Shown: positions 11,740-62,465, counted from the stretch's first letter. The stretch is DNA of 64,000 nt from a virus (IMGVR_UViG_3300029793_000467), one strand, 5' to 3'. Notes: a model not told the origin generated them from the sequence alone. Made by a program: numbers and translations.

Positions 11740-13380
11740 GTGGCGTGAAGAAGAAAAATCCCCTTCCCCACCGTTTTGCCGTGAGGGTGCCCCCGCCTTT
11801 AGGCGCGGGGAGGAATCACAGCTTTCTTTTTTCCATATTACGCGTAATGTGGTATTATTAGAAATATGAGCCAGAAAGTCGTGTTGGAGCGTGTGACGTT
11901 GGACGGTGCCAAACCGTTCATCGGTTATACCGGCCAGCATGACCCATGTTCCGAAAAGCTTTACGCGAATACCGGCAGTCAGGCGATGGAATGGCTTTGT
12001 GACGCTTGGCGTTACCGGTTCAACCAGTTAAGGTCGAACCGTTGCAAATACGGTAAGGACAAGACTCTCATCCCCATTGGCGGCACACCCGACACTCGTA
12101 GCGTCAGCCAGTCCCGAAGCGAATGTTCTTGGCTAACCGCAGTGCCTTCCCTTATCTTGGAATCCCCGACCAGAATCGAACGGGTCGAATGGTTCACCTC
12201 CGTGAAACGACGCAAGACCCTATTAAGCAAACGGTTGAAACCGGGGAGAATGCCCCGTTTCAAATCGTATAAGCGTGACGGGCAACGTTTCGTCTGCTGG
12301 TACAACGGGGGACGCAACGCCGTATACCGTCGAGTCAACCGCAACCACGGCATCATAACCATCACCGGACAGAACCCCAAAGGCATGTCATTGCCGGGCG
12401 AACCGTTACGCTACCGTATCCTCCTGCACGTGCGCGTCAGCCAGCCGATACGCGAATACACGGCCATCCAAGTGGATTGGACGAACCGTACCGTCGTGTT
12501 CAACAACATTCCAACGCCCATCAGTCATGAGCCGACCGGCAGGGCGGTCGGCATCGACCGTGGATGCGTGCATGCCGCCGCCGACTCCGACGGACGGTTC
12601 ATGGACCTGCCGAAAGACAGGTTGAAGGCCATCGACCGTGAAATCCGGAAGCGTCAGAAAAGCCAAGCCCGTAGGGTCAAGACAGCCGGATATTCCAGTG
12701 AGAAAGAATACGCGAATAGTGGCAGAACCAGCCGCGCATATTGGAAGACCCGGCTGGAAATCACAAAACTGCATTCGAAATCCGAACGTATATTGGATGA
12801 CGTGTACCAAAAATACACGACCCAACTCGTGTGTGACAATGATTTGATTGTGTTGGAGAACCTACGATTAGCGAACATGAGCCGACGCAACAAGCCTGTT
12901 CCCGACCCGTTGCATGAAGGCAGGTATCTTCACAATGGTCAGGTGGCGAAACGTGGACTCAACCGTAGCCTCCGACAGGCGAGCATGGGAAGACTGTCCT
13001 CCATGCTCGCATACAAGACCAAGCTTGCCGACGGCGTGGGCATGATACTCGTCAACCCGGCCTACACAAGCCAGACATGCAGTCAATGCGGGTATGTGGC
13101 GAAAGAAAACCGCGAGAGCCAAGCGGTGTTCATTTGCAAAAAATGCTCGTACAAGACGAACGCTGACGTGAACGCGGCGAAAAACATTCTCAAACGAGGA
13201 TTGGACACGCTCGCCGTCACGTCGGAAAACCTGTGGGGCGCGGACGGCACCCCGGTCGAACAGGGACGTAAGACCAACGGAAACGCTACACGCGAATCCG
13301 TGGCAGTCTCTTAGAAACCAGAACCTCTCCTACCGCAAAACGATAGGAGGAATCCCCCGGTTTAAACCGTGGGGAGGACG
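11740..13380 (+). mobile_element. IS200/IS605-family TnpB-only (IS1341-like) insertion sequence
   Basis: A single tnpB gene is flanked by subterminal hairpins (11789-11810 and 13354-13375). A GGAGGAATC word sits next to both hairpins. No TnpA gene is present. The insertion breaks the minus-strand gene array. Confidence 0.65.
11866..13314 (+). CDS. tnpB: TnpB (OrfB_IS605) RNA-guided nuclease-like transposon protein
   Basis: 482 aa. C-terminal RuvC-like region with a zinc finger (TSQTCSQCG...CKKC) and NADVNAAKNILKRG. Confidence 0.85.
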   Translation: MSQKVVLERVTLDGAKPFIGYTGQHDPCSEKLYANTGSQAMEWLCDAWRYRFNQLRSNRCKYGKDKTLIPIGGTPDTRSVSQSRSECSWLTAVPSLILESPTRIERVEWFTSVKRRKTLLSKRLKPGRMPRFKSYKRDGQRFVCWYNGGRNAVYRRVNRNHGIITITGQNPKGMSLPGEPLRYRILLHVRVSQPIREYTAIQVDWTNRTVVFNNIPTPISHEPTGRAVGIDRGCVHAAADSDGRFMDLPKDRLKAIDREIRKRQKSQARRVKTAGYSSEKEYANSGRTSRAYWKTRLEITKLHSKSERILDDVYQKYTTQLVCDNDLIVLENLRLANMSRRNKPVPDPLHEGRYLHNGQVAKRGLNRSLRQASMGRLSSMLAYKTKLADGVGMILVNPAYTSQTCSQCGYVAKENRESQAVFICKKCSYKTNADVNAAKNILKRGLDTLAVTSENLWGADGTPVEQGRKTNGNATRESVAVS

Positions 13381-23690: not shown

Positions 23691-25070
23691 CTACTCGGCG
23701 TCCTGCATGGATTTTCCGGCGGCATGTCCGGCGACGACGCTGTTCAGCAACGCTTTCAGGTCGATGCCCAAGGATTGCGACAAGCCTTCGCTCAACTGGC
23801 TCACACTGTTCACGGTGTCACCCACGAGCTTCGTGCTGTTTCCGTCGCCGTACATGGTGATGTGGTCAACCTTGGTGAGCGGTTCGGCGGCTGCTCGAAT
23901 CATGTCGGGGAGAATCTGAATGTACTGTTGGGCGAGGATGTACGTGTTGTTCATCGCATTGTAGGCTTGGCCTTGGGCGCGGATTGCCTCGGCTTCGCCG
24001 ACACCCTTCGCCTGTGCGGCGGAACCCTCGGCCTTGCCTTTGACCTCGGTCGCGTGTGCGTCCGCGTCGGCTGTGGATTGGATGGCCTGAGCCTCCTGCT
24101 GGCGTAGGTACAGTTCCGCGTCGGCGTGTTTTTGGGTTGTGTACATTTGCGCGTCGGCCTGCTGTTCGGCGGCGTAACGGTCGGCGTCGGCCTTCTTGCA
24201 GATGGTCGCGTTCAGTTTTTGCTCTTCGATTTCAGCGTTCTTCTGTTCGAGCACGGCCCTCTTCTCGGCGGCGGCGATTTCAGCCTCCTGCTCCTTGACC
24301 TTGAGGGTCTTGGACTGTTCGGCGCTGGTGATGCCCTTCACCGCGTCTGCTTCGGCCTGCGCCTTGTCGGCGATGGACTGGAGTTCCGCACGCTTCAGGT
24401 CAAGCTGGTTCTGGCGGACGGCCACATCCTGTTCCGCGTTGATGGACGCGAGTTTCGCGTTTCGGCTGATTTCCGCCGCCATCTCCGCGCCCATGTTGGC
24501 GATGACGCTTTGCCGGTCGGTGAAGTCCTGAATGTTGAACGTGGTCAATTGCAGTCCGAGCCGTTCCATGTCCACACGCGCGGATTCGGCCACGGTTTCG
24601 GCAAATGTGTCCCTGTTCTCCATCAGTTCCTTCAACTCGGTCTTGCCGATGACCTCGCGAAGCTTACCTAGGAGCACCTGAGTGACGTCCTTCTCCATGC
24701 GCTCCTTGGACTGGTTGAGATAGTTCTTGGCGGCGTTCTCCAACGCTTTGACCTGTTTGCCGTTCTCGTCCACGGTCGTGGTTTCCGACGCTATCTGGAA
24801 GTTCGCCACGGCGTTCACGTCGATGAGGATGGCGTCCTTAGTGGGAATCGCCGTATCGGTTGACAGCAGGGATTGCACCGCACCCAAGCTCAGCCAGTCC
24901 ACGCGCATGATGAACGGGATGATGAACGCGCTTCCGCCTGAGACGAAGCGTCTTCCGCCCGGCCCGGTGATGACCATGACCTTGTTGGCGGGGCAGACCT
25001 TGTAGCTTGCGGTTGCGAGCAGTACGACAAGTACTGCCACTACCGCGCCGATAATGAGTGTTGTCGGCAT
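23691..25070 (-). CDS. SPFH/band-7 (flotillin/YqiK-like) membrane protein
   Basis: N-terminal TM helix, an SPFH domain (VMVITGPGGRRFVSGGSAFIIPF..), then a long Ala/Glu/Gln-rich coiled coil. AGGAAAAAC RBS. Confidence 0.75.
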   Translation of the reverse strand: MPTTLIIGAVVAVLVVLLATASYKVCPANKVMVITGPGGRRFVSGGSAFIIPFIMRVDWLSLGAVQSLLSTDTAIPTKDAILIDVNAVANFQIASETTTVDENGKQVKALENAAKNYLNQSKERMEKDVTQVLLGKLREVIGKTELKELMENRDTFAETVAESARVDMERLGLQLTTFNIQDFTDRQSVIANMGAEMAAEISRNAKLASINAEQDVAVRQNQLDLKRAELQSIADKAQAEADAVKGITSAEQSKTLKVKEQEAEIAAAEKRAVLEQKNAEIEEQKLNATICKKADADRYAAEQQADAQMYTTQKHADAELYLRQQEAQAIQSTADADAHATEVKGKAEGSAAQAKGVGEAEAIRAQGQAYNAMNNTYILAQQYIQILPDMIRAAAEPLTKVDHITMYGDGNSTKLVGDTVNSVSQLSEGLSQSLGIDLKALLNSVVAGHAAGKSMQDAE

Positions 25071-25119: not shown

Positions 25120-26460
25120 TCAGACTTCGGTTCCGAAGTCTGCGGCCATGTCCGCGAACTTGGAGCATTCGCCCATGAACGCGAGATTGAACGTGTCGGT
25201 CGGACCGTTGCGATGCTTGGCGAGAATCACGTCGGCTTCGCCCGGACGTTCCTCACGGTCGTAGTATTCGGGACGGTGCACGAGGAACACCATGTCGGCG
25301 TCCTGTTCGATGGAGCCGGATTCACGCAGGTCGGACAGTTCCGGCTTCTTGTCAGCACGCTGTTCCGCATTACGGTTCAACTGGGAGAGCACGACCACGG
25401 GGCATTGCAGTTCCTTGGCGAGCATTTTGCATTGGCGGGAGAAGTTCGACACTTCCTGCTGACGGTTCTCGACGGTTTTACCGGAGGACATGAGTTGCAG
25501 GTAGTCGATGACGATAAGCTTCAACCCGTTGACCTTGCGGCTGAGAGCACGGCATTTCGCACGGATGGTGCTCATGTTGATGATGGCGGAATCATCAACC
25601 CACAATGGTGCCTTCTCGACCTGATGGCAGAGCGCGTTGAGTTTGTTCCAATCATTCGAGTTCAGATTCTCGGGATGTTGGAACGATGCGAGACGGATGC
25701 CTGTTTCGGCTGCGAACATGCGTTGCATGAGTTCGTGACCGCCCATTTCCAGACTGAAAATCACAGTCGGCAGACCCTTGTGCAGTGCGGCGTTACGCGC
25801 GAAATCCATGCCGAGAGTACTCTTGCCCATGCCCGGACGGCCCGCGACTATGACCATTTGTCCGGCTTGCAATCCGTGCGTCAACGCGTCGATGTCACGG
25901 AAGCCGGTGGGTGTTCCGAACTCGTTCGGATTCTGTGACATTTCATCCAACTGTTGGAGCATTTCGTCGGACAGGCGGTATGCGGTCTTCAACTCGTCGT
26001 CTTCGGAACGGCTTGAATCCTCCAACGAGAACGCGGCCTCCAACGATTTGCTGAGCACATCTTCGGCTGACGCGTCGGATACGTTGCTCATCTGTTGCAA
26101 CTGCTGTCCGACCATGTTGATGTGGCGGAGGATGGCCGCGTCACGAATCTGCTTGATGAAATAGTCACTGTTGTTCGACGTGGGCGCGGAGCCGACAAGC
26201 TGGGCGATGTAGTCGATGCCGCCGACCTGTTCCAACTGTCCGTTGTCCATCATGTGCGAGGACAGCATTTGCGCGTCCACACGGTTATTGTCTGCGGCCA
26301 GTTCCTTTATATTATGGAAGATGGTCTGGTTGGTCGGCTGGTAGAAGTCCTCTTCGGAAAGTTGGCTGATGACCTTGTCCAACGTTTCCGCGTCTTGAAG
26401 CATGGCCCCCAACAATACTTGCTCGGCCATGTCCTTGTGGATTGGTGTGGGGACGCTCAC
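25120..26460 (-). CDS. dnaB: replicative DNA helicase DnaB
   Basis: 446 aa. Walker A GRPGMGKST, Walker B LIVIDYLQLM and the characteristic DnaB N-terminal domain. Confidence 0.9.
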   Translation of the reverse strand: MSVPTPIHKDMAEQVLLGAMLQDAETLDKVISQLSEEDFYQPTNQTIFHNIKELAADNNRVDAQMLSSHMMDNGQLEQVGGIDYIAQLVGSAPTSNNSDYFIKQIRDAAILRHINMVGQQLQQMSNVSDASAEDVLSKSLEAAFSLEDSSRSEDDELKTAYRLSDEMLQQLDEMSQNPNEFGTPTGFRDIDALTHGLQAGQMVIVAGRPGMGKSTLGMDFARNAALHKGLPTVIFSLEMGGHELMQRMFAAETGIRLASFQHPENLNSNDWNKLNALCHQVEKAPLWVDDSAIINMSTIRAKCRALSRKVNGLKLIVIDYLQLMSSGKTVENRQQEVSNFSRQCKMLAKELQCPVVVLSQLNRNAEQRADKKPELSDLRESGSIEQDADMVFLVHRPEYYDREERPGEADVILAKHRNGPTDTFNLAFMGECSKFADMAADFGTEV

Positions 26461-35261: not shown

Positions 35262-36476
35262 ATGACCCATCAGGAGGCGGTCTTATTGGAAAAACGAACG
35301 ATTTCCCTGATAATCGGCTCCGGAGGGCTTCTCACAACCATCAAAAAGGCCCTTACGAGAGCCGGAAACATGCGTTGGCAGGTGCCCGCCGCAGACAATA
35401 TTCAAGCACAGGCCGACTATCTGATAAGACATCCGGTGCCCTCCGGGTTCAAAGGAATCATCTTCACCGACAGGGCTGGAAACTGGCTTCCGATAGCCAA
35501 CGCCGGATACATGGTCTACTGGTGCAACACCGGTCAGATACCGGTCGGAGCCATGGGCATGAGCGAACAGATGTTACGCATGAGCGTGGCTGATTTCGCA
35601 CGGACTTATTGGGGAATCCAGCTTGCGGACAAGCGTCTCGTAGTCGATATCCTCCAAAACAAAGTGAAGGAGACTGCGGTTCTCCTACCCATCACATCCA
35701 ACACCGGAGGAGTGGGGAAGACCACGTCCAGCCGACAGTTGGCAGACCGTGCGTCGCAAGCCGGATTGCGTGTTCTACTCATCGACGGGAACATCAGACA
35801 GTCCAGCCAACGTAGTTTTTTCGACCCGAGACAGGACAAGCCATTGCATACGATAGCCGACTGGCGACCGGGCATGCAGGTGCAGGTCGGAGCCAATCGA
35901 GGACGTGACCTTGGGGTTCCATACGACATCTGTTTCGCACCTCCAGCAGGCGTCGGAGTGGACTGGCAGATATACCGTCAGTACATCCAAGCGGCACGCC
36001 GACTGTGGGATTTCGTCGTGCTCGACCTTGACCGAATCAGCGCGGACGATTTGGATGATAGGGAGAATATCGCCAACGGTTTACTGCTTCCATACATTCA
36101 ATCGGGAGACCCTTGTCTGGTTATCGTCAAGGCTGGAAGGCAGACGCAGATAGACGCGTTGAATCTGCTGACGGCCTTGGCTGAGCATCATCTTCCGAAG
36201 GAACTCATCGGCATCAAGGACACTGTTCCGGTCGGACTGCAAGGTTACAGACGGCTCGACTATACGAGATATGGGACGTTTCTCGGAACCGAATATCAGA
36301 CGGTCGAGGCAAGCAACCATATCGCCAACGGTGATGTCAGATGGGATGACCCCGGTCTTGCTTTTGCTAGGGAGAACATTCTTAACTGGGCTTTGCCCGA
36401 CCGTGGTTTCAATCCGGAAAGATTCAATCCGAACGCTAAGAACAGTGAAGGAAAGAAAGGTCGTGGGCGTAAGTGA
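35262..36476 (+). CDS. ParA/MinD/CpaE-like P-loop ATPase with N-terminal extension
   Basis: Deviant Walker A LLPITSNTGGVGKTTSS. 404 aa. Confidence 0.55.
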   Translation: MTHQEAVLLEKRTISLIIGSGGLLTTIKKALTRAGNMRWQVPAADNIQAQADYLIRHPVPSGFKGIIFTDRAGNWLPIANAGYMVYWCNTGQIPVGAMGMSEQMLRMSVADFARTYWGIQLADKRLVVDILQNKVKETAVLLPITSNTGGVGKTTSSRQLADRASQAGLRVLLIDGNIRQSSQRSFFDPRQDKPLHTIADWRPGMQVQVGANRGRDLGVPYDICFAPPAGVGVDWQIYRQYIQAARRLWDFVVLDLDRISADDLDDRENIANGLLLPYIQSGDPCLVIVKAGRQTQIDALNLLTALAEHHLPKELIGIKDTVPVGLQGYRRLDYTRYGTFLGTEYQTVEASNHIANGDVRWDDPGLAFARENILNWALPDRGFNPERFNPNAKNSEGKKGRGRK

Positions 36477-45951: not shown

Positions 45952-46305
45952 ATGGAAGAGGTAGGAAACCAAGCCGCTGACACTGCGGGACGAACGTTGG
46001 GTGACGTGCTCACCGTGTTCTTCTCTTGGGTGTTCACGCCGACGGGCGCAATCCTCACTTTGTTGATGATTATTATTTGCGCCGGTAGTGTCGTGTTCGC
46101 AATCTTGCAGAAAAGCACCCGCGCGTTGATGACCGCGTTGACCATCTGCGCGTTCCTGTTGTTCGTGTGGATTATCACCGGTGTCTTGGAGGTCATGGGT
46201 TTGCCCGTGCGTGAATGGATGAAGGATATCGCGGCCCAGATGCCTGATATCGGTTCACTGTTCATGGAGTTCCTTCGCAAACTGGTGTTCACAGCCACCG
46301 AATGA
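45952..46305 (+). CDS. membrane protein (117 aa)
   Basis: Three hydrophobic helices. Confidence 0.45.
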   Translation: MEEVGNQAADTAGRTLGDVLTVFFSWVFTPTGAILTLLMIIICAGSVVFAILQKSTRALMTALTICAFLLFVWIITGVLEVMGLPVREWMKDIAAQMPDIGSLFMEFLRKLVFTATE

Positions 46306-46542
46306 TTTTTGTTCGGCTATAAAAACGAAAGAAGGCCGTATCCGTTTCATCGCGGACGCGGCTTTCTGTTTTTCTGTTCCGCCTGTAAACTTGTACGCCG
46401 TTCAACTGTTTTACTGGAATGTTTCTCCGAACGGTTTTCTGGTTCGGCGTGCCGACTTTTCGCCGTTGTTATCATCGAAACAAAAAGACATACCCCCACC
46501 ATGATTCCGTCCACACCGGAAACGAAAAAAGGAAACCAGAAC

Positions 46543-47205
46543 ATGAGAGTCAAAAACCATACGGTCATCATCACCGTCGCAATCATCAAAGGCGGTTCAG
46601 GAAAAACAACCACATCAATGGCATTGGCCGAACTATTGCACAAACGCGGGGAACAAGTCACAGTCTTGGACTCCGACAACACGGGCGGCGCGACCATGTG
46701 GGAAATGTACGTCGAACAGGAAAACCGCAGACGCAGACAGGACAATCCGGACGCGGAACCATACACGCTCGGATTCCCTGTAGTGCAAACCAACGAAGCC
46801 GTATTGAACAATCCGGAACTCATCCGCGAAAAATATTCAGGCTGGGTCATCATCGACACCCCACCGTCCGACGCCGGAGTGGTGCAGGCGGCGATAAACG
46901 CGGGCGACGTGGTGATAATCCCATGCCAGCCATCCGTATCCGATTTGACCCACGCGGGACGCACATACGCGGCGGCACGCAACGGCATCGTCCTGTTGAC
47001 ACGCGTGAAGCCGAGAACGAAACTCGCCCGGAACAGCATCAGCGAACTGGATGAGGAAGGCATCGCACGGTTCGAAACCGTCATCACGGAACGTGAAGCC
47101 GTCAAGAACATGTACGGCACGACGGAAATCGACAACAAGGAGTATTCCAGCGTCGTGCAGGAACTCATCGACTATCTGTCTGAAATCAATCTGGTGGAAG
47201 AATAA
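46543..47205 (+). CDS. parA: ParA-family partition ATPase
   Basis: Walker A IKGGSGKTTT. 220 aa. AAGGAAAC RBS. Confidence 0.8.
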   Translation: MRVKNHTVIITVAIIKGGSGKTTTSMALAELLHKRGEQVTVLDSDNTGGATMWEMYVEQENRRRRQDNPDAEPYTLGFPVVQTNEAVLNNPELIREKYSGWVIIDTPPSDAGVVQAAINAGDVVIIPCQPSVSDLTHAGRTYAAARNGIVLLTRVKPRTKLARNSISELDEEGIARFETVITEREAVKNMYGTTEIDNKEYSSVVQELIDYLSEINLVEE

Positions 47206-47235
47206 AAACAGGAGCAGGGGAGTAAGTAGGCAATC

Positions 47236-47691
47236 ATGGTCAAGAACATCAAACGCAACGCTTTCGCAACCGGAATGCAGGACAAGCGTGACATGCGCCC
47301 ATTGGAATCACCGGAAAACATTAGCGAACCGAACACGGAGCAGGAACCGACACAGGCCGTTCCTGAAACGCGGGAACCGTCAGACCAGTCAGTCCAAACG
47401 TCCGCCGACATGCATGCCCAAACGCTCACGGAGGAAGAAGCCGACCGTCGGGCACGGCTCATCACCGACATAACCCATCCTGAAACACCGGCACCATCCG
47501 AAACGCATCAGCCGCCGAAAGAGAAAAGAATCGGCAGCAACGTCACCGTCGAAAACTGGCGTGCGTGGAAGATGAGAAGCATCGAATACGGGACGAAGCA
47601 GGCTGTATTGTTGAATGCCGCGATGGATTACTGCTTCCAGCAGGGGCACTTCGACCAGTCGCTCATCGACAAGTATGAGCAGAAGGATTAG
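47236..47691 (+). CDS. putative centromere-binding partition protein (ParG/RHH-like C-terminus)
   Basis: Lies immediately downstream of parA. The N-terminus is disordered and the C-terminal ~45 aa are RHH-like. Confidence 0.4.
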   Translation: MVKNIKRNAFATGMQDKRDMRPLESPENISEPNTEQEPTQAVPETREPSDQSVQTSADMHAQTLTEEEADRRARLITDITHPETPAPSETHQPPKEKRIGSNVTVENWRAWKMRSIEYGTKQAVLLNAAMDYCFQQGHFDQSLIDKYEQKD

Positions 47692-47714
47692 GCTCCGGTA
47701 TACTAATTTTCGGA

Positions 47715-47745
47715 TGAACAAAAAGACTTCATCGAAGTCTTCCAG
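47715..47745. terminator. bidirectional hairpin (AAGACTTC/GAAGTCTT)
   Basis: 8-bp palindromic stem with a T-run on the minus strand. Sits between the convergent par and rep genes. Confidence 0.4.
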
Positions 47746-47799
47746 ATGGGGCGGCACTCACAACAGAGCGTACGTCCCATTGGTTTTTCTAAAACACAT

Positions 47800-48669
47800 T
47801 CAGGATACGAACGGGTTCATCGGCTCTTCATCATCTGCCCCACCCGCGTCCGTGTCGGCATCATCGTTACCCGACTGGATGGAAGGGAGACTGGGGCGGA
47901 CTATGACGCCGGTTTCCGTGATTTCGACTTTCAATTCCGGCCATGCGAGCTGAATCTTCTCCAACGCTCTTCTGAACTTGCGTCTGAATTCACGCATCGG
48001 ATACCCGTCATACTTGAACTGCATCAACAGAGCTTCCCATGTTACGCGGGTTTCACGTCGGGCACCGTTCGCGCGGAACGCGAGCCACTGGTAGATGTCC
48101 AAGGCGAGGGCGTCACTGCGAAGCCGACGGACGATGTACGGGTTGAGTGGCACGCAGTTCTCGGTCAGCAGCGCCCACATCTGGGGAGAGAATTCTATGA
48201 ACGACTTCTTGTTTTCGTCGGTCCCGTAGTTGAGCGCCACGGTGTTGGCGACAAAGAACGAGTGGGCTATGAATCCGTCTGCTGACCAGTTTTGGAGGAT
48301 GATGGAAGTGGTGGCTAGGTTCTTAACCATTTTCATCACATTATTCTTGTTCGACCCGGAATATTTGATTCCGACGCTATTGCAGAACGAGTTATACGTG
48401 TCGTCCAAGTAGACGGTATGATGCTCCACGTCCACGCAGTCGCTCCCGTTCTTGATAAGAGAGCGAATGTGGAGGAGGAACATTCTGGGGGCCGCACCAT
48501 AAGCCCATTCCCCGTTGGAGGCTGAGACGGTGATTGACGAGTTCCCGTTCGTCTTCCTAACGGATGGCGAGTCCGGTTTCGACTGTGGCAGGAAGCTCAG
48601 CTTTGACATCACGGACGGGGCGTAGCGGTATGCGTTTGACTTGTCGAGGTCTTTGCTATCATAGGTCAT
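47800..48669 (-). CDS. plasmid replication initiator-like protein (Rep)
   Basis: 289 aa. Adjacent to the iteron array. The C-terminal region looks like a winged helix. Confidence 0.5.
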   Translation of the reverse strand: MTYDSKDLDKSNAYRYAPSVMSKLSFLPQSKPDSPSVRKTNGNSSITVSASNGEWAYGAAPRMFLLHIRSLIKNGSDCVDVEHHTVYLDDTYNSFCNSVGIKYSGSNKNNVMKMVKNLATTSIILQNWSADGFIAHSFFVANTVALNYGTDENKKSFIEFSPQMWALLTENCVPLNPYIVRRLRSDALALDIYQWLAFRANGARRETRVTWEALLMQFKYDGYPMREFRRKFRRALEKIQLAWPELKVEITETGVIVRPSLPSIQSGNDDADTDAGGADDEEPMNPFVS

Positions 48670-48849
48670 GTGACCACAGTTCCTTAAGGTTGATGGTTGC
48701 CGTTACCCCGGCTGGTTCCGCAGCGCGGGGTTTTCTTTTCTCTGATTCTAGTTAGAACTTTCGACCTCTCCACTGTTGCAGTCAACCTCTTCGGGCACGC
48801 GTGAGAAGGTGCCGCTATAGGTGGGTTATTCTGGCACGCCCTGCATAAA

Positions 48850-48979
48850 AAGTTGGAACTTCTGACACGGAAAGTTGGAACTTCTGACACGCTAAGTGGG
48901 CACTTCTGACACGGAAGTTGGAACTTTCGACACGGAAAGTTGGAACTTCTGACACGGAAAGTTGGAACTTCTGACACGC
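48850..48979. repeat. iteron array: 6 x ~22-bp direct repeats AAGTTGGAACTTCTGACACGG
   Basis: Four perfect and two degenerate copies at 22-bp phasing, upstream of the rep gene. Confidence 0.8.
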
Positions 48980-48989
48980 TTTCGACCTG

Positions 48990-49190
48990 AAACGCCTACT
49001 CCCATAAGGGATTTCGACACCTGCAAAAGGTATACAAAAGATTACAAAATATTAATAACCCTTGTATTCCCTTCTTTTTTCAAAAAACAAGTTTTTTTAA
49101 AAAGAAGCAAAAAATCAAAAACAGAATAAACCCATTTTTTAGATTTCATGTTTTGAAGAGATTGAACCCTGCTTAAAGGTCATCCTCAAT
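48990..49190. other. AT-rich region (candidate DNA-unwinding element of oriV)
   Basis: Strongly AT-rich (runs of A/T such as TTTTTTCAAAAAACAAGTTTTTTTAAAAAG) in an otherwise GC-rich sequence, adjacent to the iterons. Confidence 0.5.
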
Positions 49191-49402
49191 GCTTTTTTCG
49201 CTTCCCTGATTCGAACGTTTGAACAGGTCTAATCCTTTTGTGGAAGAGAGAAAAAAGAAAAGTTCCGGAAAAAGAAAAACAGAGAAGCCAGTACCACCGG
49301 TGGATGCATGCTGAAAACCCCGAAGCCGATATAGGAAACCTCGGACGGAAGGTAGACTTGAAGACAGTGCATGACAAACGGAAATGAATTCGGAGCGGAA
49401 CT

Positions 49403-50858: not shown

Positions 50859-51884
50859 ATGGCTAAGAAGAAAGGCGGAATGTCCGCCGGTTCCCTGCTT
50901 GGCGGCATTCTGGTCGTGTTGACGGCCATGGTGCTCATCGTGAATCTTGGATTGTGGACTCCCATGTCGAAGATTTTCGGATTGCCGGAAATCAACAGTC
51001 TATCCCAGTTGATGCCGGGTGAGGATTCCAAGGTGAAGCCGGATGTGAAATTAGGGTTGAAGGAGCCTTCCTTGAAGTCGTCCGGCTCCAATTCGCAAAC
51101 CAATACTCCAGAAGCCGCAGAAACGCCCTCAGAAACGACGCAGACACAAAATGGGGACAATTCCTCAAGTCAAGCACAAAAAGCCTCCACAAGCGTTCCT
51201 GAAGGTGCTTTAAGCCCTATCAGCACGAAACAGGCGCTTGACAAACTCGCTGACATCGAAACCGCAACCCCGCACACCAAAGGATACAATCGCAAAACCG
51301 ACTTCGGCACATGGCAGAACAGCAACCAGCTCTGCGGATACGGCACCACCCGCGACTACATCCTCAAACGCGACATGACCGACGTGACCATGGACAAGAA
51401 CTGCAAGGTGCTCACCGGCACCCTCCAAGACCCATATACAGGCAATGCCATCAAATTCCAGCGCGACACCTACGAGACCGTCAACGGCAAACAGAAGAAA
51501 ACAGGCGGAGACAGCATGGCCGTCCAAATCGACCATGTGGTGGCTGTCAACGACGCTTGGGCCAGCGGACTGTGGAAGGACTCGCGCAAGGGCGACCGCA
51601 TCACCTATGCGAACGACCCGGAAGTGCTCGTCGCGTCCGAAGGAGAAGCGAACAACATCAAACAGCAGGGCGTGAACCTTGTTAAGGACGAGGCGTTGAA
51701 CGGTTCCTCGACCAAGTGGAAGGACGCAACGCCCAGCATTTGGCTCCCGTCCAACAAGACGTACCAATGCTCGTATATGGCTAAACGCGTGTACATCAAA
51801 GACAAGTACAAACTGTCCATGAGCAGTTGGGAAAAAGCCGAAACGAAGTCGTTCCTCACGCAATGCGTGGCCGACGGGAACTGA
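50859..51884 (+). CDS. membrane-anchored extracellular DUF1524/HNH-like nuclease candidate
   Basis: N-terminal TM helix, a Ser/Thr-rich linker, then TATPHTKGYNRKTDFGTWQ..CGYGTTRDYILKRDM..IDHVVAVNDAW, which resembles the DUF1524/GmrSD-C His-Me finger. Confidence 0.45.
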   Translation: MAKKKGGMSAGSLLGGILVVLTAMVLIVNLGLWTPMSKIFGLPEINSLSQLMPGEDSKVKPDVKLGLKEPSLKSSGSNSQTNTPEAAETPSETTQTQNGDNSSSQAQKASTSVPEGALSPISTKQALDKLADIETATPHTKGYNRKTDFGTWQNSNQLCGYGTTRDYILKRDMTDVTMDKNCKVLTGTLQDPYTGNAIKFQRDTYETVNGKQKKTGGDSMAVQIDHVVAVNDAWASGLWKDSRKGDRITYANDPEVLVASEGEANNIKQQGVNLVKDEALNGSSTKWKDATPSIWLPSNKTYQCSYMAKRVYIKDKYKLSMSSWEKAETKSFLTQCVADGN

Positions 51885-60521: not shown

Positions 60522-62465
60522 TTGAAAAACAAACTCCGAGGGAAAATCCCCTTCATCGCGGCAGTGTCCGCACTATCCATGCTCGCCTCCGCAAACGTGG
60601 CATTGGCCGCAGAGGTCGGCAACCCAATCATCGTGGACAAAACCAACATGTTCACAGCTGATGAAACCGTTGACCTGTTGGGCGGCGACTTGGGCGAGGC
60701 GGCGAACTTCGGTCTCGTCGGCTTCGACTCCGTCCGTCTGAACGCCCACACGAACAGTAATATCGCCACCGAGCACGCCTATATTGGCGCGGCCTTCGGC
60801 AATCATGCCAACGGTGTGGACGAGCCGGAAGTCAGCTACATGGACAAGGTTGACGGCAATATCAACGTCAATCTGCCCGCCGACTCCAAGATTGTCTTCG
60901 GACAGTCAAACATCATCGGACAGACCGACAATGGCAACAGTTGGACGGTGAACGGGAACAAGCTGGAAATGCAGACCAGTGGAAGCCTCCCGAAGTCCGA
61001 ACGAGTGCTCAAGGATTCCAAGACCGTCAAATATCTTGATTTGAAGTCCATGGAAAAGAGCATGACCAGCCTGTCCGCCAAGTGGTCGAAAGCTTCGGAA
61101 TCCAACGCGACCCATGATTTCTCCGACATGAACAAGCGTCACATCGACGCCAACGGTGATGTCGCTCATATCAACATCGACGCGAAAGAACTGCAAGGTA
61201 ATCGTGTGACCGCCACGTTGGGGGAGAAGACCCGTCTCGTCGTGAATGTTGACGCCGAAGGTGCGGACAATATCACTCTGCCCCAATTGGACGTGGACGG
61301 TATCAATCACGCCGAATACGCCAAGTGGACGGACAAGGGTGTTATTTACAATCTGACCGACTCCAAAGCCAAGGACGGGCAGTATCACGGCAACGTCGGC
61401 ACCGCTGGCGCATCCTCTTCCGTGATTCTCGCGCCGGAAGCCAACGTGGACGCGTCGCAGAACGTTGAAGGGCAGATTATCGCCAAGAACGTGACCATCG
61501 GCGGCGAATTCCACCGCAACAGCGTCAACGTTCCCGCCACCCGCCACGTCGAGGTGAAGCTGGACGGTCAGGACAAGACCGAGACCACTCCGTTCGTCGT
61601 GCCCCAGCCCGCTAAAGACCATTACCGTTTCACCGTCTGGACCACCAACCCGGACGGAACCGGCGACTCCTACAAGCCGGGCGAGACCGTGACTTCGATT
61701 CCGGAGAACACCACCCTGTACCCGCAGTGGGAGGCGAAGCATTTGCTTCGCTATGATACGAACGGTGGCAACGGCAAGTATGTGGATTCCGACCTGCCGT
61801 CAGATGTGTCTGACACGGTTCCAACCCGCGACGGTTACGAGTTCGACGGTTGGATGATTGATGGAGTCAAGGTCGATTCCGGCGATAGCGTCGAGGACAA
61901 CGGCTCCGACGTGACTGTGGTCGCGCAGTGGACGCCGGTCAAGCAGGATGTGACCCCGACTAAGCCGGAAACCCCGAAGGACGACAACAAGACCGACAAC
62001 GGTGGCAACGGTTCTGAGATTCCGAAGGATGATAAGACGGATACTTCATCCAAGGATGACAACAAGACCGACGATTTCAAGCCGAACACTCCGAAGGACG
62101 ATATCAATACTGATACTCCTTCCAAGGGTGATGATTCCAAGCCGGAAACCCCGAAGGATGATACGGACAAGAACGATACTCCGTCAAAGGATGATTCCGA
62201 CAAGTCCGACAATGATACGAAGGTTCCATCCGACGATAAGAGCGATGTGAACACTCCGACCAGCGATAAGACCGCCGATACTGGTAAGACCGATACCGGC
62301 AAGAAGACTGTGGGCGCCAAGAACAATACTCAGGCCGTTCAACAGGACGGTCAGGGCTTGGCTACCACCGGCGTGGCTGTTGGCGTCATCGCGGTCGCGG
62401 TCATTGTGCTTGCCGCCGCCGGTGCAATCCTCTCCGTCGCAAAACGACATGAGGGTAACCGCTGA
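60522..62465 (+). CDS. cell-wall-anchored surface protein (LAxTG sortase signal) with T-P-K-D-D repeat stalk
   Basis: TTG start and a signal peptide. C-terminal LATTG motif, a TM helix and a KRHEGNR tail. Tandem (E/N)TPKDD-type repeats. Confidence 0.65.
   Translation: MKNKLRGKIPFIAAVSALSMLASANVALAAEVGNPIIVDKTNMFTADETVDLLGGDLGEAANFGLVGFDSVRLNAHTNSNIATEHAYIGAAFGNHANGVDEPEVSYMDKVDGNINVNLPADSKIVFGQSNIIGQTDNGNSWTVNGNKLEMQTSGSLPKSERVLKDSKTVKYLDLKSMEKSMTSLSAKWSKASESNATHDFSDMNKRHIDANGDVAHINIDAKELQGNRVTATLGEKTRLVVNVDAEGADNITLPQLDVDGINHAEYAKWTDKGVIYNLTDSKAKDGQYHGNVGTAGASSSVILAPEANVDASQNVEGQIIAKNVTIGGEFHRNSVNVPATRHVEVKLDGQDKTETTPFVVPQPAKDHYRFTVWTTNPDGTGDSYKPGETVTSIPENTTLYPQWEAKHLLRYDTNGGNGKYVDSDLPSDVSDTVPTRDGYEFDGWMIDGVKVDSGDSVEDNGSDVTVVAQWTPVKQDVTPTKPETPKDDNKTDNGGNGSEIPKDDKTDTSSKDDNKTDDFKPNTPKDDINTDTPSKGDDSKPETPKDDTDKNDTPSKDDSDKSDNDTKVPSDDKSDVNTPTSDKTADTGKTDTGKKTVGAKNNTQAVQQDGQGLATTGVAVGVIAVAVIVLAAAGAILSVAKRHEGNR

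What the first reader, a model, noticed from the sequence alone, without database searches (positions are those of the whole stretch)
46543..49190. Complete iteron-type replicon: parA-parB/G, rep, 6 x 22-bp iterons and AT-rich DUE
Six phased 22-bp direct repeats (AAGTTGGAACTTCTGACACGG) lie immediately upstream of a minus-strand Rep-like gene, followed by a ~170-bp AT-rich stretch. A convergent ParA plus small RHH-like partner lies on the other side, separated from rep by a bidirectional hairpin. This is textbook theta-type oriV architecture and argues the window is plasmid-borne, or an ICE with plasmid-like maintenance.
Basis: partly seen in the sequence, partly recalled or inferred. Interest (0 to 1): 0.55.

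Follow-up and report, generated by a model that had tools for sequence, protein, structure and literature searches.

The report
Second Rep-iteron module of Bifidobacterium megaplasmid
The repeats, Rep gene, AT-rich block and ParA cassette are all real and plasmid-borne, but this is the "RepA-type" copy of two Rep systems on a large Bifidobacterium plasmid, and the only studied relative of this copy could not drive replication on its own.

Summary
There are six 22-bp direct repeats (48849-48978), and the window's most AT-rich 150 bp lies beside them. A 289-aa Rep (Pfam RepA_C) has a predicted fold like the iteron-binding initiators RepE and RctB. A convergent small ParA and a 151-aa partner lie on the other side.

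The window is collinear with the Bifidobacterium breve conjugative megaplasmid pMP7017 at 30-60% amino-acid identity. It belongs to a family of ~200-226 kb contigs common in gut metagenomes, whose proteins NCBI names as B. adolescentis or B. pseudocatenulatum. I found no paper describing this family.

The Rep is the ortholog of pMP7017 RepA (35% identity), not of RepB (24%). In pMP7017, RepA binds its upstream repeats cooperatively. However, the repA fragment did not replicate autonomously and repA could be knocked out; RepB is the initiator. Relatives of this window also carry a complete RepB-type replicon about 100 kb away.

So "iteron-type, plasmid-borne" is supported, but "complete replicon" is not shown. 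Rep is under purifying selection, and its iterons co-vary with it across lineages, so the module is functional. I read it as an auxiliary module, not the main origin. The RHH fold of the ParA partner could not be confirmed. It is a new member of a known kind, of moderate interest.

The parts
46330..46378 (+). Hairpin plus T-run ending the upstream 117-aa gene. This makes parA-partner its own transcription unit.
   Evidence: RNA fold of 46290-46400, z -2.7. Conserved in relatives.
46379..46542 (.). parA upstream region with candidate operator or centromere repeats (CGCCGTT/AACGG and GTTCGGC motifs, ~65-bp spacing).
   Evidence: Repeats D2/D4. The motifs are kept in the diverged relative L015. 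CGCCGTT is not enriched in the window as a whole, so these are candidates only.
46543..47205 (+). Small ParA-type partition ATPase (220 aa, deviant Walker A KGGSGKTT, no N-terminal DNA-binding domain).
   Evidence: Pfam and NCBIfam hits. 51% identical to the pMP7017 ParA. dN/dS 0.06-0.10.
47236..47691 (+). 151-aa ParA partner, a presumed centromere-binding protein. It has a conserved basic N-terminal 27 aa, a variable P/Q/E-rich linker and a conserved C-terminal ~55 aa helical domain.
   Evidence: Alignment of 22 homologs. 31% identical to the 118-aa protein downstream of the pMP7017 ParA. AF2 mean pLDDT 55, helices at 105-118, 121-135 and 141-148. No Pfam hit, PDB sequence match or fold match.
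47716..47790 (.). Back-to-back intrinsic terminators between the convergent par operon and rep.
   Evidence: RNA folds of both strands. Conserved in close relatives.
47800..48669 (-). Rep, RepA_C family (289 aa), with a two-winged-helix fold and a disordered acidic tail ending ...DDEEPMNPFVS.
   Evidence: Pfam. AF2 mean pLDDT 75.8. Foldseek best matches are RctB domains 2-3 (E 1.7e-7) and RepE54 (E 4e-4). 35% identical to pMP7017 RepA and 24% to RepB. dN/dS 0.10-0.12.
48706..48745 (.). Conserved GC-rich hairpin in the rep leader. Read on the plus strand it is followed by a T-run, so it looks like an antisense terminator.
   Evidence: Terminator-like site on the + strand at 48714-48732. Kept in L004, L015 and the pMP7017 repA leader, with one compensatory pair.
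48745..48772 (-). Promoter-like site for rep (-35 TGGAGA, 16 nt, -10 TAGAAT), with a degenerate seventh iteron copy (48750-48765) in its spacer.
   Evidence: Consensus scan. Repeat family D2.
48849..48978 (-). Six tandem 22-bp iterons (rep-sense unit GTGTCAGAAGTTCCAACTTTCC).
   Evidence: The same core occurs in 2-7 copies at 22- or 32-bp spacing in relatives. The lineage with 61%-identical Rep has 4.5 x 22 bp with a different sequence.
48979..49023 (.). GC-richer spacer containing the short palindrome CCCATAAGGG (49001-49010).
   Evidence: Read from the sequence. pMP7017 has a 35-bp palindrome containing CCATAAGGG at the same relative place.
49024..49054 (-). Three ~10-bp repeats (rep-sense TTTTGTAATC / TTTTGTATACC / TTTTGCAGG) between the AT-rich block and the iterons.
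   Evidence: TRF period 10, 3.0 copies. Nearly identical in L015 although its iterons differ. pMP7017 has 3.2 x 12 bp CTTGTAAT/CTTGTATA repeats at the same place.
49031..49190 (.). AT-rich block, a candidate DNA-unwinding element (24.7% GC), with an A/T palindrome at 49071-49107.
   Evidence: Conserved in relatives.

Best explanation
This is the RepA-type Rep-iteron module, joined to a small-ParA partition cassette. The element that carries it is a roughly 200-226 kb relative of the Bifidobacterium conjugative megaplasmid pMP7017.

How it most likely works:
- Rep is a two-winged-helix protein of the RepA_C family. It binds the six phased 22-bp iterons cooperatively. Through the degenerate copy inside its promoter it represses its own gene. 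(Both steps are inferred from the pMP7017 homolog and from the anatomy.)
- The iterons sit beside three conserved 10-mers and the most AT-rich DNA of the window. This is the layout of an unwinding element.
- I take the module to be an auxiliary, conditional ori-like unit and not the element's principal origin. The principal origin is most likely the RepB-type replicon, which relatives carry about 100 kb away. That replicon has a RepB gene, irregular 20-mer iterons downstream, and a tRNA array plus tmRNA upstream.
- ParA and the 151-aa partner form a separate operon that segregates the low-copy plasmid.

Shown here: the anatomy, the fold, the orthology, the second replicon in relatives, purifying selection, and Rep-iteron co-variation.
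Inferred: binding, autorepression, and non-autonomy.
For: Anatomy and chance level.

Fold: best matches are RctB domains 2-3 and RepE54.

Orthology to pMP7017 RepA:
- 35% identity over 249 aa, E 2e-47, against 24% to RepB.
- The upstream layouts match: AT-rich DNA, three short TTGTAW repeats, a CCATAAGGG palindrome, then GTGTCA-type repeats of about 21-22 bp period (and sequence).

Experiments on the homolog (PMC8313286):
- RepA shifts the repeat and promoter probe with a Hill coefficient of about 6.
- The repA promoter is repressed 3.7-fold when the plasmid is present.
- The repA fragment does not replicate, and a repA knock-out is viable.
- RepB with its iterons is the minimal replicon.

Second replicon in this family:
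- The RepA-like P0026 and the RepB-like P0084 lie on the same contig, NODE_43_length_202302, 104 kb apart.
- P0006 (90% identical to the window Rep) and the RepB-like P0187 share the longest-contig length 262,271.
- The RepB-type locus has at least 10 downstream 20-mers, 8-10 tRNAs, a tmRNA and SecE/SecG, as in pMP7017.

Backbone: window 25-62 kb is collinear with pMP7017 60-11 kb.

The module is not a relic:
- dN/dS is 0.10-0.12.
- The 22-bp period and the whole layout are kept in the lineage with 61%-identical Rep, while the iteron sequence has changed.

Origin marks: the cumulative GC-skew minimum marks the proven repB origin in pMP7017. The window shows no such switch at the iterons.
Against: - The homolog is only 35% identical, and it was tested in one host (B. 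breve UCC2003). Non-autonomy may not transfer to this lineage.
- Here the iterons form one clean tandem array, separate from the promoter, next to a strongly AT-rich block and next to par. That is more origin-like than the 4+4 repeats that overlap the pMP7017 repA promoter.
- The order parA, small partner, repA is the basic replicon layout of a Corynebacterium plasmid. A RepA_C protein is the only Rep annotated on a 4.3-kb mini-plasmid. So the family can supply sole initiators.
- The RepB-type replicon has not been seen in this window's own element, because only 64 kb are available.
- The local GC-skew test is also not clearly positive at RepB-type loci of the relatives, so it does not discriminate.
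Confidence: 0.55

Rival explanations
1. The rep, iteron and AT-rich segment is a self-sufficient theta-type origin, either the sole or a co-equal origin of the element. Rep monomers bind the iterons, melt the AT-rich block and recruit a helicase.
For: - All the classic parts are present in the classic order, and the Rep has the iteron-initiator fold.
- The array is homogeneous (4 of 6 copies identical over the 19-nt core), and its period is conserved across lineages, with co-varying sequence.
- rep is under purifying selection and lies next to the par cassette, as in a Corynebacterium RepA_C plasmid.
- A RepA_C protein is the only Rep annotated on pSM103mini.
Against: - The closest characterised locus, pMP7017 repA with the same layout, failed exactly this test and is dispensable (PMC8313286).
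- Relatives carry a complete RepB-type replicon orthologous to the proven one.
- There is no DnaA box with at most one mismatch in 48670-49402.
- There is no minus-to-plus GC-skew switch at the locus.
Confidence: 0.27
2. There is no origin activity at all. Rep is a domesticated initiator that now acts only as a DNA-binding regulator, for example an autorepressor, an incompatibility or copy-control determinant, or a nucleoprotein landmark near the par locus. The 'iterons' are its operator.
For: - For pMP7017 RepA, the only activities demonstrated are cooperative repeat binding and promoter repression. It is dispensable, yet more conserved among megaplasmids than RepB (PMC8313286).
- A degenerate iteron copy sits inside the promoter-like site.
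Against: - A pure operator does not explain why the AT-rich block, the three 10-mers and the palindrome travel with rep in three lineages and in two different genomic contexts.
- In this window the six iterons lie about 80-230 bp upstream of the promoter-like site, not over it.
Confidence: 0.15
3. The module belongs to an integrative conjugative element that sits in the chromosome and uses plasmid-like maintenance only transiently.
For: - One RepB-like cluster member has a longest contig of 614,956 bp.
- The authors of the 2024 pMP7017 study allow for 'megaplasmid or integrated element' in B. longum genomes (PMC10832533).
Against: - At least 17 independent assemblies give contigs of 201-237 kb, with the rep genes at very different positions.
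- The whole window is collinear with an experimentally extrachromosomal plasmid.
- The window has no tRNA gene. The larger proteins I scanned against Pfam showed no integrase, but most ORFs of the window were not scanned.
Confidence: 0.03

Closest known systems
repA locus of Bifidobacterium breve megaplasmid pMP7017 (RepA plus repeats A1-A8; Dineen et al. 2021, PMC8313286)
   Same: - Closest homolog in PLSDB: 35% identity over 249 aa, RepA_C domain.
- Same order upstream of the gene: AT-rich DNA, three short TTGTAW repeats, a palindrome with CCATAAGGG, then direct repeats with a GTGTCA(A/G)A core at about 21-22 bp period.
- Same hairpin in the leader.
- The host plasmid has a collinear backbone.
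   Different: - Here there are six contiguous 22-bp units, not 4+4 15-bp cores split by about 55 bp and overlapping the promoter.
- Here rep lies between the ParA partner gene and the 426-aa gene. At that site pMP7017 has only 92 bp, and its repA lies 55 kb away beside FtsK-like genes.
- This Rep is 75 aa shorter and ends in an acidic ...NPF tail.
repB replicon of pMP7017 (the experimentally defined iteron-regulated minimal replicon)
   Same: A paralogous RepA_C protein (24% identity, E 2e-19), with iteron-based control. An ortholog of this replicon is present in relatives of the window.
   Different: RepB iterons are seventeen irregularly spaced 20-mers lying downstream of the gene, next to a tRNA array and a tmRNA. 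No RepB-type 20-mer occurs in the window, and no window-type iteron occurs at RepB loci.
Classic iteron initiators and origins: F RepE/ori2, R6K pi, pPS10 RepA, and Vibrio cholerae chromosome 2 RctB
   Same: - The predicted two-winged-helix fold matches RctB domains 2-3 and RepE54.
- Tandem repeats of about 22 bp lie beside an AT-rich block and upstream of the rep gene, with a repeat copy in the promoter. That this layout is typical of these plasmids is established knowledge.
   Different: Only 12-14% sequence identity. No sequence-level hit to any PDB chain. No DnaA box. The Pfam family is RepA_C, not Rep_3.
Type Ib partition systems (small ParA with a small centromere-binding protein, e.g. 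ParF/ParG of TP228; parA plus omega-like RHH next to repA on Corynebacterium atrinae pJCM19266a)
   Same: - A 220-aa ParA with a deviant Walker A motif and no N-terminal DNA-binding domain.
- A small downstream partner with a conserved basic N-terminal peptide and a conserved C-terminal domain.
- The gene order par then rep, as on pJCM19266a.
   Different: The partner gives no RHH signal. It has no Pfam hit and no fold match. hhalign against the Corynebacterium RHH protein gives probability 0.07%. BLASTP against a ParG sequence recalled from memory gives E 0.086. No statistically supported centromere repeats were found.

Membership tests
Pfam RepA_C (PF04796) plasmid replication proteins | Match to the family profile above the gathering score | tested here: met
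   41.6 bits against a cut-off of 26, E 2.1e-10, residues 57-201. All close homologs carry PF04796.
Iteron-type (Rep-iteron) theta replicon | Initiator with tandem winged-helix (WH1-WH2) fold | tested here: met
   AF2 model, mean pLDDT 75.8. Foldseek matches RctB domains 2-3 (E 1.7e-7, TM 0.54), RepE54 (E 4e-4) and an isolated WH1 domain.
Iteron-type (Rep-iteron) theta replicon | Three or more direct repeats of about 17-22 bp, phased with the helix, next to the rep gene | tested here: met
   6 x 22 bp at spacing 22, 22, 21, 22, 22. Six matches against 0.02 expected.
Iteron-type (Rep-iteron) theta replicon | AT-rich unwinding region adjacent to the iterons | tested here: met
   49031-49180 has 24.7% GC, the lowest of the window. 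It is conserved in relatives. Only composition was tested, not melting.
Iteron-type (Rep-iteron) theta replicon | DnaA box in the origin (present in many but not all iteron plasmids) | tested here: not met
   No TTATCCACA with at most one mismatch in 48670-49402. The 10 hits elsewhere in the window equal the chance expectation.
Iteron-type (Rep-iteron) theta replicon | Rep binds the iterons specifically | not testable with these tools
   Indirect support only. pMP7017 RepA shifts its repeat probe (PMC8313286). Iteron sequence co-varies with Rep between lineages.
Iteron-type (Rep-iteron) theta replicon | The rep-plus-iteron fragment replicates autonomously | not testable with these tools
   Not testable here. 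The orthologous pMP7017 repA fragment failed, and repA is dispensable (PMC8313286).
pMP7017-type bifidobacterial conjugative megaplasmids | Collinear backbone (DnaB, CobQ/ParA-like ATPase, 886-aa ATPase, ~1300-aa membrane protein, ParA and partner, DUF1524 protein) | tested here: met
   tblastn of window ORFs: window 25-62 kb is collinear with pMP7017 60-11 kb at 31-59% identity (annotation).
pMP7017-type bifidobacterial conjugative megaplasmids | Both RepA and RepB homologs present (reported for all known members) | tested here: inconclusive
   The window holds only the RepA type. Relatives hold both on one contig. The rest of this element was not available.
pMP7017-type bifidobacterial conjugative megaplasmids | At least 70% identity of backbone proteins (criterion used in PMC10832533) | tested here: not met
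   Backbone identities are 31-59%, and there is no megablast hit in PLSDB. It is a distant relative, not a member by that criterion.
Type Ib ParA / small centromere-binding protein partition system | Small ParA (~200-220 aa) with deviant Walker A and no N-terminal HTH | tested here: met
   220 aa, KGGSGKTT at residues 15-22. ParA-superfamily Pfam hits. NCBIfam ParA_partition at 107 bits, below its cut-off of 180.
Type Ib ParA / small centromere-binding protein partition system | Partner protein with a ribbon-helix-helix DNA-binding domain | tested here: inconclusive
   The secondary-structure order is compatible, with an extended stretch followed by helices at 105-118 and 121-135. But the model has pLDDT 55, and there is no Pfam, PDB or fold match.
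Type Ib ParA / small centromere-binding protein partition system | Repeated centromere or operator sites near the operon | tested here: inconclusive
   Short motifs upstream of parA are kept in L015 but are not statistically enriched.

The most novel reading that the evidence does not exclude
The RepA-type module is a real origin that cannot fire with host factors alone. It depends on plasmid-encoded replication proteins, above all the DnaB-type helicase that both this element (25120-26460) and pMP7017 keep in their backbone. The acidic ...NPF tail of Rep, which resembles the SSB C-terminal tip, may take part in that recruitment.

This would explain three things at once:
- why the cloned pMP7017 repA fragment failed in a plasmid-free host;
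- why repA is dispensable while RepB works;
- why RepA is nevertheless more conserved than RepB and co-evolves with its iterons.

Such a second origin could serve establishment after conjugative transfer, or replication in alternative hosts.
Probability: 0.15. Interest if true: 0.6.

Novelty: new member of a known kind. Interest (0 to 1): 0.38.

Why it matters
Large Bifidobacterium plasmids are known only from B. breve and B. longum in the papers I could search. This window belongs to a distant, apparently undescribed and very common relative, with proteins named as B. adolescentis or B. pseudocatenulatum. Its RepB-like gene was seen on 932 contigs.

The RepA-type initiator is a stated puzzle of pMP7017 biology. 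It is dispensable and not self-sufficient, yet it is better conserved than the essential RepB. This lineage offers a cleaner version of the module: one tandem array, a strong AT-rich block, and a position beside par. It also provides natural Rep and iteron co-variants, so the question of what the second Rep does can be tested directly.

In practice, a working replicon from this family would add a low-copy vector for B. adolescentis-group strains, for which few genetic tools exist.

Tried and rejected
- Megablast of 46300-49400 against PLSDB gave no match.
- Two scans of GTDB species-representative genomes, with the Rep protein and with a Rep alignment, found no relative.
- A profile search of Rep against PDB sequences found nothing meaningful. 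Only the fold comparison worked.
- RHH tests on the 151-aa protein all failed or were marginal:
  - Pfam at E up to 10 gave nothing.
  - The PDB profile search gave only spurious ubiquitin hits in the low-complexity linker.
  - Foldseek on a low-confidence model gave nothing.
  - hhalign against a Corynebacterium RHH partner gave nothing.
  - BLASTP against ParG recalled from memory gave E 0.086.
- No DnaA box lies in the ori-like region.
- GC skew was not decisive. The cumulative curve has a local maximum near 50 kb and a minimum at 12-17 kb in the window. On +/-10 kb flanks of relatives there is no switch at either RepA-type or RepB-type loci. The method does mark the proven origin of pMP7017.
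- Cross-talk between the two Rep systems was not seen. There are no RepB-type 20-mers in the window and no window-type iterons at RepB loci.
- CGCCGTT as a centromere motif is not enriched.
- A second rep gene inside the window was not found.
- The 'gene remnant' idea is rejected, because dN/dS is about 0.1 and the iterons are intact.
Full report
**1. What is in the sequence**

- Tandem Repeats Finder reports a 22-bp unit in 6.0 copies at 48849-48978. The copies start 22, 22, 21, 22 and 22 bp apart.
- The 19-nt core GTGTCAGAAGTTCCAACTT, allowing up to three mismatches, occurs six times in the 64 kb, all in this array. The expectation is 0.02.
- A seventh, degenerate copy lies at 48750-48765. 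It falls in the spacer of the only promoter-like site found in the region: -35 TGGAGA and -10 TAGAAT on the minus strand, 48772-48745.
- Beyond the array, going away from rep, come four elements in turn. First is a short GC-richer spacer with the palindrome CCCATAAGGG. Second are three ~10-bp repeats at 49024-49054. Third is an AT-rich block; 49031-49180 has 24.7% GC, the lowest 150-bp segment of the window (mean 52.9%, sd 5.3%).
- The minus-strand ORF 47800-48669 (289 aa) matches Pfam RepA_C above the gathering score.
- On the other side, ParA (46543-47205, 220 aa, Walker A KGGSGKTT) and a 151-aa ORF (47236-47691) converge on rep.
- Two adjacent hairpins lie between the convergent genes, each with its U-run on its own strand. 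A further hairpin with a T-run ends the upstream 117-aa gene, so the par genes form their own transcription unit.

**2. What the Rep is**

- An AlphaFold2 model built on 29 homologs has mean pLDDT 75.8. It has two winged-helix-like halves and disordered ends.
- Foldseek against the PDB returns RctB domains 2-3 (E 1.7e-7) and then many RepE54 entries (E about 4e-4), plus an isolated WH1 domain. This is the fold of iteron-binding initiators.
- By sequence alone no PDB chain is found.

**3. Where the window comes from**

- PLSDB has no nucleotide match. By tblastn the best Rep relatives are the 'RepA' genes of the 169-198 kb megaplasmids of B. breve and B. longum, at 34-35% identity.
- I retrieved all of pMP7017 and ran tblastn with the window's ORFs. 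Window 25-62 kb is collinear with pMP7017 60-11 kb at 31-59% identity.
- The shared genes, in order, are: DnaB helicase, a CobQ/ParA-like ATPase, a 398-aa protein, an 886-aa ATPase, a ~1300-aa membrane protein, a 117-aa protein, ParA, the ParA partner, the 426-aa protein, and the DUF1524/GmrSD_C protein.
- The one break in this order is rep. In the window it sits between the ParA partner and the 426-aa gene. At that site pMP7017 has 92 bp, and its repA lies at 96-97 kb.
- Close homologs of the window Rep (83-92% identity) carry NCBI names from B. pseudocatenulatum and B. adolescentis.
- They lie on metagenome contigs of 214-237 kb, with the gene at quite different positions. Contigs with the associated RepB-like gene are 201-226 kb. 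This recurrence of size with permuted starts is what a circular molecule of about 220 kb gives.
- No relative is present in GTDB species-representative genomes, so the element is accessory.
- I found no paper describing a megaplasmid in these species. A 2025 review still lists only pMP7017 and its B. longum homologs.

**4. Which of the two Rep systems this is**

pMP7017 encodes two RepA_C proteins. The window Rep aligns with RepA at 35% identity over 249 residues (E 2e-47). It aligns with RepB at 24% (E 2e-19).

The DNA upstream of pMP7017 repA has the same order of elements as here. It runs: AT-rich DNA, 3.2 copies of a 12-bp CTTGTAAT/CTTGTATA repeat, a 35-bp palindrome containing CCATAAGGG, and two groups of four repeats. 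Those repeats have core GGTGTCA(A/G)AATTCTA at a period of 20-21 bp. The core resembles the GTGTCAGAAGTTCCA of the window.

Dineen et al. (PMC8313286) reported the following.
- Purified RepA shifts the repeat and promoter probe with strong cooperativity.
- The repA promoter is repressed when the plasmid is present.
- An 1829-bp fragment with repA and its upstream region gave no transformants in B. breve UCC2003.
- repA could be inactivated on the plasmid.
- repB could not be inactivated, and repB with its downstream 20-mer iterons is the minimal replicon.
- RepA is nevertheless more conserved among megaplasmids than RepB.

**5. Does this family also have the RepB system?**

Yes, in the relatives.
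- A search with pMP7017 RepB found a group at 55-57% identity.
- One of these, P0084, lies on ENA contig NODE_43_length_202302 at about 150 kb. The RepA-type P0026 (61% identical to the window Rep, with the same ParA-side synteny) lies on the same contig at about 46 kb.
- For the close family, P0006 (90% identical to the window Rep) and the RepB-like P0187 share the same longest-contig length, 262,271 bp.
- The RepB-type locus is a full ortholog of the proven replicon. It has at least ten irregularly spaced 20-mers (CGTGGCTTTTCAAACACCTT) downstream of the gene, 8-10 tRNA genes and a tmRNA upstream, and SecE/SecG nearby. This matches pMP7017.
- The window itself contains only the RepA-type gene. 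With the two loci about 100 kb apart, a 64-kb window would not be expected to hold both.

**6. Is the module alive?**

- rep has dN/dS of 0.10 against close relatives and 0.12 against the 61% lineage.
- In close relatives the iteron core is unchanged, while the copy number ranges from 2 to 7 at 22- or 32-bp spacing. Many short-read contigs end inside the array.
- In the 61% lineage the whole layout is kept: AT-rich block, almost identical 10-mers, and 4.5 tandem 22-bp units. But the unit is now TGGTTCCACTTCTTCCCACTTT.
- A protein and its repeats changing together, with period and position fixed, is what a specific Rep-iteron pair under selection looks like. The 'remnant' idea raised for pMP7017 repA does not fit this lineage.
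- The AT-rich block, the short repeats and the palindrome travel with rep in two different genomic contexts. This argues that they belong to the rep module and not to neighbouring promoters.

**7. Origin or not?**

No available computation settles this.
- There is no DnaA box in 48670-49402.
- In pMP7017 the cumulative GC-skew minimum falls at 118 kb, on the proven repB origin.
- In the window the cumulative curve has a local maximum near 50 kb and a minimum at 12-17 kb. The flanks of the iterons read +0.028 on the left and -0.007 on the right, which is not the origin pattern.
- In relatives, however, neither the RepA-type nor the RepB-type loci show a clean switch on +/-10 kb. I treat skew as giving no support for an origin here, not as evidence against one.
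- In favour of origin competence, RepA_C proteins can be sole initiators. One is the only Rep annotated on the 4.3-kb pSM103mini. A Corynebacterium plasmid has the same order of parA, small partner and repA.
- Weighing these, I put about 0.55 on 'auxiliary module, not the main origin, not self-sufficient'. I put about 0.27 on a self-sufficient origin and about 0.15 on a pure regulator.

**8. The partition cassette**

- ParA is a small deviant-Walker-A ATPase, 51% identical to the pMP7017 ParA.
- The partner has an invariant basic N-terminal peptide (MVKNIKRNAFATGMQDKRDMRPLE), a length-variable P/Q/E-rich linker, and a nearly invariant C-terminal ~55 residues. It is 31% identical to the protein downstream of the pMP7017 ParA.
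- That architecture fits a centromere-binding adaptor that stimulates ParA.
The monomer model is poor (pLDDT 55), and there is no Pfam, PDB or fold match. There is also no similarity to a genuine RHH partner from Corynebacterium.
- Candidate operator motifs upstream of parA are conserved in the diverged lineage but are not statistically supported.

**9. Verdict**

It goes too far in calling it a complete replicon.

It is a new member of a known kind: the RepA-type module of a distant, apparently undescribed relative of pMP7017. Interest is moderate. An iteron module on a plasmid is ordinary. But this one bears on an open question, namely what the conserved yet dispensable second initiator of bifidobacterial megaplasmids does, and it offers natural variants with which to test it.

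Noticed in passing
window 25120-26460 (-): A plasmid-borne DnaB-type replicative helicase (DnaB_C E 2.4e-97), 53.5% identical to the dnaB of pMP7017 and in the same backbone position. The RepB mini-replicon of pMP7017 works without it, so what it is needed for is open.
   Followed up: partly
window 47800-47870 (Rep C-terminus, residues ~267-289): Rep ends in a disordered acidic tail...DDEEPMNPFVS. In the relatives at 60-66% identity the protein ends exactly in NPF. This resembles the acidic C-terminal tip of SSB proteins (from my own knowledge, not tested). pMP7017 RepA lacks it.
   Followed up: no
window 48636-48745 (+ strand): A GC-rich hairpin followed by a T-run lies on the strand antisense to the rep leader. 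It is conserved in close relatives, in the 61% lineage and in the pMP7017 repA leader, with one compensatory pair. A TTGACT-15 nt-TATCAT site at 48636-48662 could start a ~70-nt countertranscript covering the rep ribosome-binding site. Alternatively it is just a 5'-UTR stem-loop.
   Followed up: partly
window 46543-48850 compared with L004 and L018: Mosaic divergence. The synonymous divergence of rep from close relatives is 0.40-0.44, while the adjacent parA has 0.04. The ~170 bp between the iterons and the rep start is not homologous to the relatives. This suggests that rep alleles are exchanged by recombination.
   Followed up: partly
L011, L014, L031-L040 (RepB-type loci of related contigs): The related ~200-226 kb elements carry a tRNA array (8-10 genes), a tmRNA (tag AKTNSSRNFQLAA), SecE/SecG homologs and a type II CRISPR-Cas9 locus next to the RepB-type replicon. 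The RepB-like protein P0187 was seen on 932 contigs. I found no paper describing this family.
   Followed up: partly
L020-L026 (short-read contigs): Many assemblies break inside the iteron array; contigs end 250-420 bp upstream of rep. One scaffold has a run of N there (L003). Iteron copy numbers in assemblies are therefore lower bounds.
   Followed up: yes
window 11866-13314 (+), 23691-25070 (-), 35262-36476 (+), 50859-51884 (+), 60522-62465 (+): Other recognisable genes: a TnpB/IS605-type protein, an SPFH/Band 7 protein, a second and larger ParA/CobQ-like ATPase (57% identical to the pMP7017 'CobQ'), a GmrSD_C/DUF1524 nuclease-like protein, and an adhesin-like protein with Listeria-Bacteroides repeats.
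   Followed up: no
cluster member P0188: One RepB-like variant has a longest contig of 614,956 bp, far above the ~220 kb of the rest. This could be an integrated copy or a chimeric assembly.
   Followed up: no
window 1-64000: The cumulative GC skew has a minimum at about 12-17 kb, next to the TnpB insertion, and a maximum at about 50 kb. Both changes are independent of gene orientation. The meaning for replication direction is unclear without the full element.
   Followed up: partly
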